A stretch of DNA of 64,000 bases from Callorhinchus milii (lineage: Eukaryota): assembly GCF_018977255.1 (NCBI RefSeq), contig NW_024704768.1, positions 5,022,001-5,086,000 on the forward strand. The letters run 5' to 3'. The position numbers were made by a program. Shown one piece after another: positions 43,001-55,000 of this stretch. The number at the start of each line of letters is the position of its first letter. Position 1 is the first letter of the stretch.

Positions 43001-46000
43001 CCTCCCACAGAGCCCCTCCCACAGAGCCCCTCCCCCGTACCTTCTCGTTGACGTCAGTGCCCCTGCGGACTGCCTCCTTCATGATGATGTGAAAAGCCGC
43101 CTCCACAAAGTGCTCACCCTCAGCCGCGTCCTGGAGCCTCGCCATCAGCAACCCCTCCTCCTCGTCTACAGGCTCCTCCCCTGCCCGGCCAGGCTCCTCC
43201 CCCGCCCCGTCCGGCTCCTCCCCCACCCCGCCCGGCTCCTCCCCCGCCCCGCCCGGCTCCTCTCCTGCCCGGCCCGGCTCCTCCCCCGCCGGAGCTTCCA
43301 TCCTCACCGTGCCAACCGGCTCTTCGAAACAAAACAAGATTCGGGTGTTAACCCCACACTGCCACCTTCCCCCCCACCCACACCCACCCACCAGTCACGT
43401 TTAACCCCAGCTGTCCTTCCTCCACCTCCATCACATTGCCCACCTCTGACCGTGCCTCACACCCAACAGCCAAAACCTTCGTCCACACCTTTGTCACCTC
43501 CCACTTTGACTCAAGCCCTCCTTGACGGTCTCCCCACTTACGGGGAGTGGGGGCGGGGGGGACTGTAAGAGATAGTTCCAGAGCGGTCCAACCCTTTTGG
43601 CTGCCGAGGGCCAGTTGCCCTGTTTGAGAAAAGTCCCCTCCAGGAACACAACATTTACACAGCAGCTTTTTCACGGTCGAAGGATGTCTCAAAGCATTCA
43701 ACACAGTCGGTTGGACACCCGAACTGAGAAAACCCAGGAGAGAAATCCCAGGGAAAAGCTGGGGCTTATCCCCGGGACAGCCCTGCGGATATGCTCTCAG
43801 CTACGTTTGTCACTCTCTCTCTCTCCCTCCTTCACTCATTCACTCTCTCTCATTCACTCAGTCTTTCACACTCACTTATTCACTTTCACTTACTCTCTTT
43901 CACATTCACTCACTCTTTCACACTCACATTGTCTCACACACTCATCTCACACTCACGCAGTGAAATAGAAGATAATAAAAGACACTAGTGACAGTGAGGA
44001 GCTACTCACGGCTGTTGCTGTGCGGCTCTGGCTGCTCAGTGTTGGTGTCACAGCCCCCACTCTCCCAACCTCAACTCAACACTTCACCTGCACTTAATCT
44101 GCACTGATTGCCTCCCCCTCCCCCTGCCTGTCCCTGCCCACAGTGTGTGGGTGTGGGTGGGTGAGCTTCAGGATGTGAGTTCATACTGACCAAACGTATC
44201 GTGTGGGTTTGAGGAACAGATAAATAAATAGAATAAAAATCCTTACATTTGATCTAGAAAATTCCATCGCCCTGTCGCACAGTGGTTAGAGTACTTGCCT
44301 CGCAAGCAAGAGGACCTGGGTTCTATTCCTGACCCTGACATCAATACCGTTGTCTTATTTTCCTTCTCACAACACTAAGATCATCTATTTGCACATTCCT
44401 TTCCCACATGACTGCACCAGCCTCAGCAAGGCTGTGAGATAAGGGAAAGATAGGAGACAACATGCATTAATCAGGTAAACCGGCAACAGTAAAGGTTAAC
44501 AGTGGTTTTTGCAGGAGTAACGCAGCATAATGGGAGAAGTTCCACCCATCAACAGAACTCAGAAAGCTCACCCACGCAATCCTTGTCCATGGAGCCATGT
44601 GGCGCAGTGGTTAGAGCACTTGCCTCGCAAGCGAGAGGACGTGGGTTTGATTCCCTGGCAGGGGGAACCCCAGGCAAGTTTCCTTACTCCACACACCTCT
44701 GTTTACCCAGCAGGAAAGTAGAAACCCGATTGTTAGTTGATTGGCGGATCGCTTTCCAGGGGTTAATAATTCCTCCCCTCCAGAAATAATAATTATAATA
44801 ATTGTGGTCACTTAATCCACGACTCTGTGGGGACGCTGCTGTGCGCAATTGGCTGCCACGCTTCGCCCACAAAATATACTGTCAATTCACTCTCCAGTAC
44901 ATCCTGCGAAGCTCTTTGAGACGTTTCAACGACGTGATAAGGCGTTGTATTTGAGACCTCTCAAAGCGCTTCATAGGGATAGACTAATGTTTAGTGACTA
45001 TATTTTGTGGGCGAAACGTGGCCGCCAGTTATGTGTATTGGAAAGAATGTTTACGGGATAATAATATCAGTCACTTCGCTTGACAGCAAATCGCGTGAAG
45101 CGCTTTGTGACGCCCTCCCCACGTGGAGAGGCGTCAGTTCGTGTGTTGAATTAATATGATTTGAAAAGCGCAAACGCGGCGGGCGGCGGGACCCCGCGGA
45201 CACCGGCTGGAGCACGGCCGCAGCTGATTGGGTACTGCGGTTGTCAATCGGACCGCCGATCCAATAGGAGAGGAGCTGGGCGTGAGCCCGCCCCGGGTAT
45301 TAAAGGGACATCGCATGGCCAGCGGCCACTTCGAGCGGAGCAGAAGATCGACTGGTGGGAGTGAGTTTAGTGTCTCTCTCTCTCTCTCTTCCTCCCTCGT
45401 TCTTCATTCTTCTCTTCCCCCCCCCTCTCTCTCTCTCTTCCTTTCTCTCTCTTTCACTCTCCCTCTCGTCCCTCTCTCTGTTCTGTGTGTGTTACAGGAT
45501 ACAATAACAACAACAACAACACATGTGGGGAGGGGGACATTTCTGGTTAATTTCAGCCTCAAACAGTGGGGATGGAGCGCAGGACATCCTCTCCCCTCTC
45601 CCCCCTCCCCCTCAGTTGTCAGGGATGCATGGAATCTTCGGTTTGGTTTGGATTGGGTTTCCACACGTGTCAGACACCCGACTGACCCCCAAAAATTGCT
45701 CTTCAAAGAATCGACACTGTCTGTCTGTCTGTCTCCCCAGGAAGCGGGGTCCCCCCCCAGAGAGCCATGACGTCCTGCCCACTGGTGCTTTGCCCCTATG
45801 ACCCGAGTCACAAGATCAGAAGCAGCCGCCTCCCCTACCACCTGGTGAAGTGCCGCAAAGTAAGTGTCACTCGCACCCAGTGCCCCCCACTCCCCAGCCC
45901 ACTCTCTGCTGTGCAGCCTCACTGGGGGTCCGGGGGATGGTGAGCGGTGCTTCGCTGGAACTGAACTGACTCCCACGGTGACGTGTTTGTCAATGTTGGA

Positions 46001-52000: not shown

Positions 52001-55000
52001 ACAATAATTTAGCAGTTGGTATAAGAGCTCCAAAGACTTTGCCTGAGCAGCCGTTGTCCTCAGCGGATTGTCTGGGATCCGTGCCGTTTGTGTTGCCCTG
52101 GAGAGTGGGTAAGTGAGACTTGTACCTTCCGAGTGGGAGTGAGTTCATATACTTTAATCATGTTTGTGGGACGCTGCTGTGCACAATTGGCTGTCGCATT
52201 TAGCCCACAAAATATACAGTCGATTCATAAGAAATGCTAGACGAAGAAAGACCAAGGTCCATCTAGTTTGCCTTTCATCTTCCTGGACATATGTCCCAAA
52301 CTCCCTATGTACAATATCCCATGATGTTATTTCTTAAAAGAAAACTAATCTGTGTTTGAAGGAATCAACATTTCCCTCTTCAACCCAGGGAGCCTGTTCC
52401 ACAGAGCCTGATTCACTTTACAGTATATTCTGTCAAGCGGTTTGAGACGTCTCAAAGACGTGATAAGGCGCTATATCAAATGCAAGGATTATTATTATTA
52501 TGTTAGACAGTAGAATACAGGGGAGCAACTGTGGAGTTCCTTTTCTGATTTCCTCTCTTTTAATTGCTCATTCCTCACTGGTTCTATTCTTACGTTGGTG
52601 TCCAAGCCTTTAGCCACCATGTCATAACCCTGTCAACAACATTCGCCTACAAAATATACAATCAGTTCACATTAAAGTATATTCTGTAAAGGGCTTTGAG
52701 ACACCTCGAAGACGTGCTTATTCGCTATATCCAATATCAAATACAAGGATTATTATCATTAGCAAATCGGCCATGTTTCCATGCCTTGTTTGTAACGAGA
52801 TATTAATGCTGACCTGAGCCGACCTATAACAAGATTTCCCTGTAATGCAAACCAGCCACTGGATTGTAAAGAGCTGCCCACTGATTGACGGACTTGCTTG
52901 GTTCTATTTTAGGTTCATCGTCCCGAGTGTGAGAGGTGTCTACTCTCCAACCGTAGCCAGTGAGTATTGGAATGTGGCACATTAGACATCAGCAGTTAGT
53001 AAATAAATCAAACTTGCTCACAGTGATAAGGCCACACACTCCAATGGCCTCAGTGTCAAAGAGAGAGAGTGTGTGTGAGGTTCCATCCAGCCTCAATCAT
53101 GTAGCTTAATGGCTGTGTCCCTCCAGTGTGATCACACTGCCTCTCCTAAGCTCCATCTCCGCAGCTCTGTCCTCTCCTGGTTTCATTCTTACCTTGTCCC
53201 AAAGTCTCCACTTTGTCTCTTTCAATGGCTTCTCCTCTTCCCCCCCCACATCTCTCATTCCGTGTGTCTGTCTGTCTCTCAAGTTGGCGAGAGCCAAGGC
53301 TTGGGGACCCAGAGTGTACAGCAACTCTTAGTAGCTTTGACTCCTAATCAGACATTATAAGCCAGAACATTAAACTGCAGCAAACCACACCACCCATCAC
53401 TTGAGGATGATCATATGTTGATGGATTCTTTTCTTGTGCATTTTCAGCCTGTTCCTCGCCACGTGGAGGAGGTAGAGAAGAGGAATTGGACCAGACCTTG
53501 TTTTTAAAGGTGGCCAATGTCACACTGGGAATCCTGTTGTCCCTGTGGTTTATAAGATGTTAAGAGGACTTCTGCACGACATTAAGTGCGGTAACTTTTA
53601 ACCCACCCCCTCAGAGAGGGACACACCTGATGGCTGTTCCTCAGAACCTGTAGCCACAGACACGATCCCTGTTCCAATAGTTTTGTTTGGGCTCAGACTT
53701 TGTTCCCTGTTAGTTTACCATTTAATAAAAAAAATTGTTCTGAAAAATTCTCAGTTGTGATGTTTGTTTCTCTTCTGCTTAACATATTGTGGCTTTGGGC
53801 AAAGAATGGTAATAATTAAAAGAATAACAATTCATCCTTGCTTTTGATGTAGCGCTCCAAATGAGTCGTCTCAAAGCGCTTCGCAGGATACACTGTCGAG
53901 TGGATTGACTGTGCATTTTGTAGGTGAAGCGGGTCCCCGGTATTCCAGGTCACAGCACAGCCTGGCTCATCGACAGGCTGCGAACACCCAGCAGGTCAGG
54001 CAGCGTCTATGGCGAGGAAAGTGAGTTAACATTTCGGGTCTTCATCGGAACCCAACAGCAGCTCAATGTGGGGATGGAGCTGGTGACGGCGCTTCGTCAC
54101 CAGGAGGTGGCGCTCCCGTATCAGCTCCGACGTGGTGAGCCCCGGGGGCTGCGTCGGGCACTGTGAGATAGGCTGACCCTCCAGCGCAGAGCTGGGAGGG
54201 GGGAGAGAGCACCGCATTGTCATATGAGATTTTAGACCGAGCTTCTTTGCCTCGTTTGAAGGACCCAATTGGAGTTTCTCCCCAGTGATTAATCCTGCCT
54301 TCTGCAGTAAACAGTCACTACACCGGACAGCAATCGTGAACACTGAGTGGGTTGGGTGTATGAACAGCTCCTGCTTGCCCCTCTCTCATCACCTCGCTCT
54401 CCTGACAGTGTGAGAAACGTCTTTTGTCAGCCTCGTAAATCAAAGGCAGTTATAAAGCCATCGCTTCCCAGGGAAAGGTAAACACCCACGGTGTCTACTG
54501 GAGGCCGGTCAGCCGGCTCCTCACATTAGCTACGGACTGTGATACGAGCTGTCCTGAGCAGCGTACTCAGGCTGGAGCACACAGGCTAACATACACAAGA
54601 GCACGGATACACACAAAGACACCAAGTCTCGCTCAAATCCGTCCCTACATGTTTATCCTTGGAACCGTAACAATATTTATTTTCCATTTGATACGGTGCC
54701 TTTCCTGTCAGGAGCTCGTCTCAATGCATGTCGCAGAATTTACTGTGAAAAGTAGTGACTGTGTATTTTGTGGGCAGCCCCAATTGCGCGAAGCGACATC
54801 CCCACAAACAGCCATGGAGCGAATGAACGATTTGAATGACCACAGGAATGGGTAACACACGGGTGGCCGTTCAGCCCATTATTGTTGGTTGCTATTTGTT
54901 CCTTCAAGACGTCATCATCCAACCTCAACCCAGTTCCATCTCCTCCAACCTTCTTCCTGCAGACTTGCCCGGCTCAGAATCTATCCAGTCCCTGAGCCAG

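What the first reader, a model, noticed from the sequence alone, without database searches (positions are those of the whole stretch)
45767..53730. Tandem pair of intron-containing GTSF1 paralogues with divergent PIWI-binding tails
Seen: two complete GTSF1-family genes head to tail with matching intron positions, each with intact CHHC fingers, the basic residues of finger 1 (IRSSR and VRAAR), its own promoter and its own AATAAA. Copy B keeps WQCPP-EEDW and the NNLA-G-R-PK-LP..VLPW tail, with an extra EQPLSSADCLGSVP segment relative to my recollection of human GTSF1. Copy A lacks the first Trp (EERPPCAEDW), has FIFG in place of FVWG/FVYG, and stops before the tail exon. The proteins are strongly diverged, so the duplication is old and both frames remain open. 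Established: GTSF1 binds PIWI proteins through central aromatic residues and boosts their slicer activity; mammalian GTSF1L has a largely intronless coding region. Inference: an independent, lineage-specific two-cofactor system, with each paralogue serving a different PIWI or germ-cell stage, or copy A acting as a modulator.
Basis: partly seen in the sequence, partly recalled or inferred. Interest (0 to 1): 0.7.

Follow-up and report, generated by a model that had tools for sequence, protein, structure and literature searches.

The report
Tandem GTSF1 genes, one tail-less
Two neighbouring genes for the small zinc-finger helper of PIWI proteins (GTSF1) are really there: one looks like the standard gene and the other is an old, shortened copy, which adds a member to an already known habit of animals keeping several GTSF genes.

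Summary
Two GTSF1-family genes lie head to tail on the + strand. Copy A runs 45767-47773 (4 coding exons, 124 aa). Copy B runs 49346-52932 (6 coding exons, 177 aa). All introns are GT-AG, and the first three sit at the same places and phases in both copies.

All four finger exons pass Pfam's CHHC model, and their best solved relative is mouse GTSF1. Both copies keep the eight zinc ligands and the four RNA-binding basic residues.

Copy B is the standard gene and keeps both aligned central tryptophans. Copy A keeps only the EDW tryptophan and the FIFG motif. It ends at a TAG ten bases before a consensus donor, and no tail relic follows.

The duplication is old: dS is about 1.2 and only exons 1-2 still align as DNA. 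Copy A was held by selection for most of that time: dN/dS is 0.32, and joint retention under drift is 1% or less.

"Lineage-specific" could not be tested, because no search of eukaryotic genomes or proteins was open. The three-way counts hint at an ancient split. Several GTSF paralogues per animal are already documented. This is a new member of a known kind, of moderate to low interest.

The parts
45227..45304 (+). Promoter-like motif cluster upstream of copy A: ATTGG 45227-31, CCAAT 45261-65, CCCGCCCC 45287-94, TATTAAA 45298-45304
   Evidence: Read by eye. The zone 45000-45299 is CpG-rich (observed/expected 1.29, 30 CpG). This is motif evidence only.
45361..45366 (+). Consensus splice donor GTGAGT that could end a short leader exon of copy A. 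The matching acceptor AG is at 45739-40.
   Evidence: Read. This is an inference; there are no transcript data.
45767..45859 (+). Copy A exon 1: ATG, CHHC finger 1 and the four basic residues. Phase-0 donor gtaagt.
   Evidence: translation, splice sites. Pfam PF05253 E 1.9e-11. Mouse GTSF1 6x46_A E 3.4e-12.
46971..47103 (+). Copy A exon 2: CHHC finger 2. Phase-1 donor gtcagt.
   Evidence: Pfam E 4.2e-8. 6x46_A E 1.5e-12.
47371..47454 (+). Copy A exon 3: divergent central region with EWKVNRCP ... PPCAEDWDL. Phase-1 donor.
   Evidence: Only PPCAEDWD against PPPEEDWE links it to B3 (5 of 8 identical, E 0.5). No PDB hit at E<=10.
47709..47773 (+). Copy A exon 4 coding part: TPPFIFG motif, then the TAG stop at 47771-47773.
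   Evidence: No BLAST likeness to B4. No PDB hit.
47784..47789 (+). Consensus donor GTGAGT 10 nt after copy A's stop. It would make exon 4 75 nt long, against 73 nt for B4.
48635..48640 (+). First + strand AATAAA after copy A's stop.
   Evidence: There are 51 matches in the window on both strands, so this is weak evidence.
49201..49316 (+). Five CACGTG E-boxes within 116 bp, inside a CpG-rich zone just 5' of copy B's ATG.
   Evidence: 19 in the window, 11.9 expected. (49200-49499: GC 0.71, observed/expected 0.73, 27 CpG).
49346..49447 (+). Copy B exon 1: ATG, DPEELL lead-in, CHHC finger 1 and the four basic residues.
   Evidence: Pfam E 2.2e-11. 6x46_A E 2.1e-17.
50538..50664 (+). Copy B exon 2: CHHC finger 2. 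Phase-1 donor.
   Evidence: Pfam E 1.2e-7. 6x46_A E 1.9e-14.
51050..51130 (+). Copy B exon 3: central region STWQCPPPEEDWER with both aligned tryptophans.
   Evidence: It matches mouse GTSF1 residues 93-109, E 0.0079.
51649..51721 (+). Copy B exon 4: TFVYG motif. Phase-2 donor.
51978..52108 (+). Copy B exon 5: the tail (NNNLAVGIRAPKTLP ... FVLPWRV). It needs the acceptor AG at 51976-77.
   Evidence: No Pfam hit, no PDB hit and no Atlas hit. No second copy anywhere in the window.
52913..52932 (+). Copy B exon 6 coding part, ending at the TGA stop at 52930-52932.
53002..53007 (+). First AATAAA after copy B's stop. A second lies at 53724-53729.

Best explanation
This is a tandem pair of GTSF1-family genes in a vertebrate genome that I do not take for human.

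Copy B is the ordinary GTSF1 gene. Finger 1 binds the target RNA through four basic residues. The central aromatic region and the C-terminal tail wrap the PIWI domain of a target-engaged PIWI protein and speed up slicing. This mechanism is taken from the literature, not shown here.

Copy A is an old DNA-level duplicate. It has kept the two fingers and the RNA-binding residues under purifying selection. Its PIWI-binding half has been rebuilt: the first tryptophan is displaced, EDW and FIFG are kept, and there is no C-terminal tail.

The most likely reading (inference) is that A is still a working GTSF-type cofactor with weaker or different PIWI binding. That would resemble mouse GTSF1L/GTSF2 or silkworm Gtsf1L beside their GTSF1.

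The two copies appear to have different promoter types. A has TATA/CCAAT/GC-box motifs. B has a CpG-rich zone with five E-boxes. They are therefore probably regulated differently (inference from motifs).
For: Family membership:
- Pfam CHHC model matches 4 of 4 finger exons.
- The best PDB hit of all four finger exons is mouse GTSF1 6x46_A, ahead of U11-48K.
- Residues equivalent to R26, R29, K36 and K39 are present in both copies (alignments; residue list from passages of PMC9385479).
- B3 aligns to mouse 93-109, including W98 and W107.

Gene structure:
- All 8 introns are GT-AG. The first three share position and phase between the copies.

Age of the duplication:
- Nei-Gojobori counts were summed over 62 aligned finger codons, exon by exon. 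pS is 0.594 (23.8 of 40.0 sites) and pN is 0.296 (43.2 of 146.0 sites). That gives dS 1.18, dN 0.38 and a ratio of 0.32. My arithmetic on those counts gives z of about 3.4 for pS > pN.
- At DNA level only exons 1 and 2 align collinearly (69% and 64% identity). Every other match is SINE or simple repeat.

Selection on copy A:
- In a drift simulation, A keeps its open frame with ATG, its 8 ligands and its 6 splice dinucleotides together in 1.0% of 20000 runs at 0.1 substitutions per site. The figure is 0.015% at 0.2, and 0 of 20000 at 0.3 and at 0.59.
- A's fingers are not significantly faster than B's. Over mouse positions 14-74 there are 9 A-unique and 5 B-unique changes (by eye). My chi-square is 1.1.

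Precedent:
- Paralogues with PIWI preferences are described in passages of PMC9385479 and PMC9808576.

Locus:
- The neighbouring genes fit the GTSF1 region rather than a retrocopy site: a CSAD-like gene, a SOAT-like gene and a C2H2 zinc-finger gene. That their human counterparts lie at 12q13, where human GTSF1 also lies, is recalled.
Against: - There are no expression or splicing data of any kind.
- A3 has no significant likeness to any GTSF1 central region (0 hits at E<=10). Its link to B3 is an 8-residue match at E 0.5, ranked 3rd of 155 hits.
- A4 and B4 share no BLAST hit. A4 has 0 PDB hits.
- A's stop sits 10 nt before a consensus donor, in an exon almost the size of B4. It could be a disabling nonsense or frameshift lesion rather than a designed end.
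- The samples are small (62 codons) and dS is near saturation. The simulation uses a Jukes-Cantor model without indels. It says nothing about a death more recent than roughly 0.05-0.1 substitutions per site.
- That B's tail is a GTSF1 tail rests on recall only (0 hits).
Confidence: 0.7

Rival explanations
1. Copy A is not lineage-specific. It is the local member of an ancient vertebrate GTSF paralogue. Either it belongs to the GTSF1L/GTSF2 type, or it is an old tandem duplicate that other lineages lost or moved. The pair is then inherited, not independently invented.
For: - Over 61 finger positions A and B share 34 residues, A and mouse 35, and B and mouse 39.
- Mouse-unique changes number 3, B-unique 5 and A-unique 9. 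Another 14 positions differ in all three (by eye).
- dS is about 1.2, and no intron likeness is left.
- Mouse Gtsf2 is multi-exon: exons 2-4 were deleted to make the null allele (passage). So introns do not exclude that clade.
Against: - Rates may simply have risen in both copies after a later duplication.
- With the 149-residue GTSF1 chain 9nhb_E as outgroup there are only 3 informative sites, all I/V swaps, and each favours a different grouping (by eye).
- No GTSF1L or GTSF2 sequence was available to compare.
- A sits beside GTSF1. Mammalian GTSF1L does not, as I recall.
Confidence: 0.4
2. One reading: an independent, lineage-specific duplication that produced a two-cofactor system, with each copy serving its own PIWI protein or germ-cell stage.
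For: - The arrangement is tandem, with identical intron positions and phases.
- Both copies are GTSF1-like in their best hits.
- The upstream motif sets differ.
- PIWI-specific GTSF paralogues are known in mouse and silkworm.
Against: - The age indicators listed above point to a very old split.
- Nothing here measures expression or binding.
Confidence: 0.35
3. Copy A is a recently dead or dying duplicate. A nonsense or frameshift change in exon 4 cut off the tail exons, which have since decayed, and the finger exons have not yet had time to break.
For: - The stop lies 10 nt before a consensus donor, in an exon of 75 nt against 73 nt for B4.
- Another frame of exon 4 stays open up to that donor.
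- There is no tail relic in 47784-49345.
- The central region is strongly diverged.
Against: - If the tail exons have decayed beyond recognition, much time has passed since the cut. Yet the fingers, the ATG and all six splice dinucleotides are intact, which drift allows in 1% of runs or fewer at 0.1 substitutions per site.
- dN/dS is 0.32.
- A-unique changes in the fingers are not in significant excess (9 against 5).
Confidence: 0.15
4. Copy A works as a modulator rather than an activator. With an intact RNA-binding finger 1 but an incomplete PIWI-binding half, it competes for target RNA or for PIWI and damps or gates slicing. Alternatively it has been rewired to another partner, as nematode GTSF-1 was to RRF-3.
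For: - The four basic residues are kept. The tryptophan aligned with W98 and the tail are missing.
- The triple tryptophan mutant of mouse GTSF1 binds MIWI piRISC about 60-fold more weakly but still activates it at saturation (passage).
- The nematode rewiring and naturally short C-termini are described in passages read.
Against: - This is analogy only.
- Mouse GTSF1L and GTSF2 bind PIWI proteins through their fingers (passage), so a tail-less protein can still be an activator.
Confidence: 0.15

Closest known systems
Vertebrate GTSF1 (mouse GTSF1, PDB 6x46)
   Same: - Two tandem CHHC fingers and four basic residues on finger 1.
- Central STW..EDW motif (copy B).
- Small size.
- Finger identity to mouse over 61 positions is 39 for B and 35 for A (by eye).
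   Different: - Neither copy has a tryptophan 5 residues after the EDW tryptophan, where mouse has W112 (read; residue numbers).
- Copy A lacks the tryptophan aligned with W98 and the whole tail.
I could not test this.
Mouse GTSF1L and GTSF2 (syntenic paralogues of GTSF1)
   Same: - They are extra GTSF genes beside an essential GTSF1.
- Their fingers are conserved and their C-terminal halves diverged.
- They show a PIWI preference in vitro: MIWI but not MILI (passages).
   Different: - In this window the extra copy lies directly upstream of GTSF1 itself.
- Whether A belongs to that clade is untested, because no sequences were available.
Silkworm Gtsf1 and Gtsf1L
   Same: Two paralogues in one animal, each activating its own PIWI protein (abstract and passages of PMC9808576).
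   Different: This is an insect pair of separate origin, with function shown by experiment. Nothing is shown for the pair in this window.
Nematode GTSF-1
   Same: A GTSF protein without the PIWI-binding aromatic residues. Some have very short C-termini yet complete fingers (passages of PMC13650160).
   Different: Nematode proteins also lack the basic RNA-binding ridge, which copy A keeps. Their partner is an RNA-dependent RNA polymerase.
U11-48K CHHC finger (PDB 2vy4)
   Same: The same Pfam finger family, PF05253.
   Different: It is a much weaker match (E from 0.00068 to 0.024, against 1e-12 to 1e-17 for GTSF1). It has a single finger and a spliceosomal role.

Membership tests
GTSF1 family (UPF0224) | Two tandem CHHC zinc fingers near the N-terminus (Pfam PF05253, twice) | tested here: met
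   A1 1.9e-11, A2 4.2e-8, B1 2.2e-11, B2 1.2e-7. All are above the curated cut-off of 21.1 bits. Spacing is C-X5-H-X9-H-X3-C in all four fingers (read).
GTSF1 family (UPF0224) | Closer to GTSF1 than to the other CHHC proteins (U11-48K, TRM13) | tested here: met
   6x46_A is the first hit for all 4 finger exons, with E from 1.5e-12 to 2.1e-17. U11-48K scores E 0.00068 or worse.
GTSF1 family (UPF0224) | Basic RNA-binding residues on finger 1 (mouse R26, R29, K36, K39) | tested here: met
   R, R, K and K stand at the aligned positions in both A1 and B1 (alignments; residue list).
GTSF1 family (UPF0224) | Central aromatic residues that bind PIWI (mouse W98, W107, W112) | tested here: inconclusive
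   Copy B has W at the positions of W98 and W107 and none at W112. Copy A has W only at W107, by an 8-residue positional match (E 0.5), plus a displaced W at the start of exon 3. A3 has 0 PDB hits.
GTSF1 family (UPF0224) | Small protein (below about 20 kDa) with a disordered C-terminal half | tested here: met
   124 aa (A) and 177 aa (B), counted from the exon translations. Disorder was not tested.
GTSF1 family (UPF0224) | Germline expression, PIWI binding and acceleration of slicing | not testable with these tools
   No transcript data. No PIWI sequence of this organism is in the window.
GTSF1 orthologue proper (as against GTSF1L/GTSF2) | Conserved C-terminal tail motif | not testable with these tools
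B5 has no Pfam hit, no PDB hit and no Atlas hit (best score 0.76, below the tool's own level). Copy A has no tail exon.
GTSF1 orthologue proper (as against GTSF1L/GTSF2) | Position in the conserved gene neighbourhood of GTSF1 | tested here: inconclusive
   The neighbours are CSAD-like (2jis 7.5e-25, ahead of GADL1 and GAD), SOAT-like and a C2H2 zinc-finger gene. That these lie on human 12q13 with GTSF1 is recalled, not checked.
GTSF1L/GTSF2 clade | Grouping with GTSF1L or GTSF2 in a tree | not tested
   No GTSF1L or GTSF2 sequence could be obtained. The protein and genome searches that hold eukaryotes were closed.

The most novel reading that the evidence does not exclude
Copy A is a conserved, naturally tail-less GTSF. 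It keeps the RNA-binding finger but has given up most of the PIWI-wrapping half. It acts as a gatekeeper of PIWI activation, competing with the full-length neighbour for target RNA or for PIWI. Alternatively it has been rewired to a non-PIWI partner, as happened in nematodes. Its different promoter type would set when that happens.
Probability: 0.12. Interest if true: 0.6.

Novelty: new member of a known kind. Interest (0 to 1): 0.3.

Why it matters
GTSF proteins switch PIWI proteins into their cutting state. Which part of GTSF sets PIWI preference is a current question.

An old paralogue held under selection, with intact RNA-binding fingers but only part of the central motif and no tail, would be a natural deletion experiment. 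It sits next to its full-length partner in the same genome.

The general idea of several GTSF paralogues with different PIWI partners is already established in mouse, fly and silkworm. The gain is therefore one more example and a handy comparison pair, not a new principle.

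Tried and rejected
- My first exon coordinates were off by one base for several exons. They were corrected.
- The first tBLASTn listing was too long and was cut. 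It was repeated with a filter.
- **Third copy or tail relic.** None was found. The best non-self hits for B5 were E 0.098 at 60048-59983 and worse. Inside 47784-49345 nothing scored better than E 20.
- **PDB searches.** Searches with A3, A4 and B5 each gave 0 hits at E<=10.
- **NCBIfam.** The scan of A1, B1 and the 799-aa ORF matched 0 families. The library covers bacteria and archaea, so this says little.
- **ESM Atlas with B5.** It was unreachable twice. When answered, the best score was 0.76, from an unnamed cluster, which is not evidence.
- **Rooting the A/B/mouse triple.** With the 149-residue GTSF1 chain of 9nhb there were three informative sites, each favouring a different grouping. This stays unresolved.
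- **Other genes under the locus.** Pfam on 10 further long ORFs in or near the locus, on both strands, matched 0 families. I therefore dropped the idea of an overlapping or antisense gene.
- **Fused A-B protein.** Rejected. A's stop precedes its last donor, and no pyrimidine-rich acceptor precedes B's ATG.
- **Shifted frame in A4.** I asked whether A4 read in another frame matches the end of B4. There was no BLAST support, so I dropped it.
- **Literature.** GTSF1 with "shark" gave 5 papers, none about shark GTSF1 (listing). GTSF1 with "tandem duplicat" gave 5 papers. The one I read in passages (PMC5952695) concerns an Amh duplicate. gtsf1l with zebrafish gave 7 papers, with nothing on gene arrangement (listing).
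- **Paper not held.** The Mol Cell 2025 structure paper (PMC12416740) is not held. What I say about it comes from citing passages.
- **No structure or complex job was sent.** Only single exons could have been submitted, and no PIWI partner of this organism is available.

Full report
**Scope and limits**

I do not take the window for human. The finger exons are only 57-64% identical to mouse GTSF1 (by eye), and the introns are full of a tRNA-headed SINE.

The N run at 5715-6005 was left as it is.

The protein and contig searches that hold eukaryotes were closed. Relatives in other genomes therefore stayed unchecked.

**Anatomy**

Copy A:
- ATG at 45767.
- Exons 45767-45859, 46971-47103, 47371-47454, and 47709 onward.
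- TAG stop at 47771-47773; 124 codons.

Copy B:
- ATG at 49346.
- Exons 49346-49447, 50538-50664, 51050-51130, 51649-51721, 51978-52108, and 52913 onward.
- TGA stop at 52930-52932; 177 codons.

All eight introns are GT-AG with pyrimidine-rich acceptors.

Intron 1 follows KCRK in both copies (phase 0). Intron 2 is phase 1 in both. Intron 3 lies two codons and one base after the EDW tryptophan in both and splits a GAT codon in both. This is the signature of a DNA-level duplication, not a retrocopy.

**Family**

Pfam's CHHC finger model (PF05253) matches 4 of 4 finger exons, with E from 1.9e-11 to 1.2e-7. It matches 0 of the 5 other exons sent.

Against all PDB chains the first hit of each finger exon is mouse GTSF1 (6x46_A):

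| Exon | E-value |
|---|---|
| A1 | 3.4e-12 |
| B1 | 2.1e-17 |
| A2 | 1.5e-12 |
| B2 | 1.9e-14 |

U11-48K comes far behind.

All eight zinc ligands are present, with spacing C-X5-H-X9-H-X3-C.

The four residues that mouse GTSF1 needs for RNA binding and for activating MIWI and MILI are R26, R29, K36 and K39 (passage of PMC9385479). At the aligned positions both copies carry R, R, K and K.

**The two halves differ**

B3 aligns to mouse residues 93-109 with both W98 and W107 in place (E 0.0079).

A3 has no PDB hit at E<=10. Its only link to B3 is PPCAEDWD against PPPEEDWE (5 of 8 identical, E 0.5). That match gains weight only from its identical place at the exon end.

At the position aligned with W98, copy A has a glutamate.

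Neither copy has a tryptophan where mouse has W112.

A4 keeps TPPFIFG where B4 has SATFVYG. BLAST finds no A4-B4 match.

Copy B goes on through a 43-codon tail exon and a short last exon. Copy A stops in exon 4.

No relic of the tail exon exists after copy A or anywhere else in the window. No third copy of any exon exists either.

That B's tail is the GTSF1 tail is recall only. Pfam, PDB and the Atlas gave nothing.

**Age and selection**

Between A and B the fingers share 18 of 26 and 16 of 36 residues.

Nei-Gojobori counts summed over these 62 codons give pS 0.594, pN 0.296, dS 1.18, dN 0.38 and a ratio of 0.32.

As DNA, only exons 1 and 2 still align collinearly. Every other match between the two loci is SINE or simple repeat. 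The duplication is therefore old.

If copy A had drifted freely, the open frame with its ATG, the eight ligands and the six splice dinucleotides would all survive in these fractions of 20000 simulated runs:

| Substitutions per site | Runs in which all survive |
|---|---|
| 0.1 | 1.0% |
| 0.2 | 0.015% |
| 0.3 | 0 |
| 0.59 | 0 |

The model has no indels, so it is lenient.

Counting by eye on the printed alignments over mouse positions 14-74, A-unique changes number 9, B-unique 5, mouse-unique 3, and 14 positions differ in all three. A's fingers are thus not significantly faster than B's (my chi-square is 1.1).

I conclude that copy A was kept by selection for most of its life. A recent death cannot be excluded.

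**The "lineage-specific" claim**

The same counts speak against a young, private duplication. A and B (34 of 61) are no more alike than A and mouse (35) or B and mouse (39), and the mouse branch is the shortest.

Either the split is about as old as the divergence from the mouse lineage, or both copies sped up after it.

With the 149-residue GTSF1 chain of 9nhb as outgroup, only three sites are informative, and each supports a different grouping. Copy A could be the local form of an ancient paralogue such as the GTSF1L/GTSF2 type.

Mouse Gtsf2 has introns, and the Gtsf1l ORF lies in exon 2 (passages of PMC4773171). No sequences of either were available to compare.

**Surroundings**

Upstream lie three genes:
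- A SOAT-like gene on the + strand. Two exons match MBOAT. SOAT1 and SOAT2 score equally well.
- A C2H2 zinc-finger gene on the - strand.
- A CSAD-like gene on the - strand. It matches Pyridoxal_deC, and human CSAD is the best PDB hit at 7.5e-25.

From memory, the human counterparts lie on 12q13 with GTSF1. That would fit B, and A with it, sitting at the ancestral GTSF1 locus.

Ten further long ORFs in and around the locus, on both strands, match no Pfam family.

**Regulatory hints (motifs only)**

Copy B's ATG sits in a CpG-rich zone (49200-49499: GC 0.71, 27 CpG). Five CACGTG boxes lie within 116 bp just upstream. The zone is flanked by a G-rich array upstream (48885-49179) and an 835-bp C-rich array in intron 1 (49459-50293).

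About 440-540 bp upstream of copy A's ATG lie ATTGG, CCAAT, a GC box and TATTAAA. They are followed by a consensus donor at 45361. An acceptor lies at 45739-40. This suggests a short leader exon.

AATAAA follows both genes, but it is common in the window (51 matches).

**What is known**

Several GTSF paralogues per animal are documented: four in flies, three in mice and two in silkworms. Paralogue-specific PIWI activation has been shown in vitro and in vivo (passages).

The central and C-terminal parts wrap the PIWI domain (passage). Removing the C-terminal half of the fly protein abolishes rescue (passage).

Mouse GTSF1L and GTSF2 bind PIWI proteins through their fingers.

A tail-less copy A therefore fits known variation.

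My searches found no paper on shark GTSF1 or on tandem GTSF1 duplicates.

**Verdict**

Copy B is an ordinary GTSF1 gene. Copy A is an old, selected, truncated paralogue whose present activity and age class remain open.

This is a new member of a known kind. Interest is 0.3.

Noticed in passing
window 49201-49316: Five CACGTG E-boxes lie within 116 bp, spaced 31, 33, 31 and 15 bp, just 5' of copy B's ATG. The window holds 19 against 11.9 expected. From memory, such boxes are used by MYC/MAX/USF-type factors and by the MGA/MAX repressor of germline genes. This was not tested.
   Followed up: partly
window 48885-49179 and 49459-50293: Copy B's first exon is flanked by a G-rich 24-26-bp tandem array upstream and by an 835-bp C-rich array of 11/21-bp units in intron 1. 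The strand asymmetry flips across the exon.
   Followed up: no
window 45227-45366 and 45739-45767: Upstream of copy A lie CCAAT, GC-box and TATTAAA motifs, then a consensus donor. If the site at 45360 is spliced to 45741, an upstream ATG at 45315 falls in frame with the ATG at 45767 (46 + 26 = 72 nt, no stop). That would add 24 residues (read).
   Followed up: partly
window 51976-51989: Two acceptor AGs lie 11 nt apart before B's exon 5. The first keeps the tail in frame. The second gives a stop after two codons, which would yield a tail-less B isoform resembling copy A.
   Followed up: partly
window 44269-45139, 46869-46914, 48444-48531, 50896-51037, 51487-51573, 52165-52228, 52413-52499, 52667-52753, 53845-53931: Many copies of one SINE family lie in the introns and flanks of both genes, in both orientations. 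The family has a tRNA-like head, a conserved body and an A/T-rich tail. None overlaps a coding exon. Rfam calls three tRNA-like hits elsewhere, at 19950, 28634 and 38169 on the - strand.
   Followed up: partly
window about 3860-8470 (+), 18006-27309 (-), 39643-43150 (-): The neighbouring genes are a SOAT-like MBOAT gene, a C2H2 zinc-finger gene with one very long exon, and a CSAD-like decarboxylase gene. The CSAD-like gene has a CpG-rich 5' end with repeated GC boxes at 43000-43500.
   Followed up: partly
window 35792-38210: A tandem array of about five units of roughly 530 bp. Some unit pairs are 98-99% identical. Its period is too long for the tandem-repeat tool.
   Followed up: partly
window 34601-34854: A 21-bp unit is repeated 12 times at 96% match. 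It reads as long open frames on both strands and is probably not coding.
   Followed up: no
window 5715-6005: A run of 291 N lies inside the SOAT-like gene. It was left untouched.
   Followed up: no
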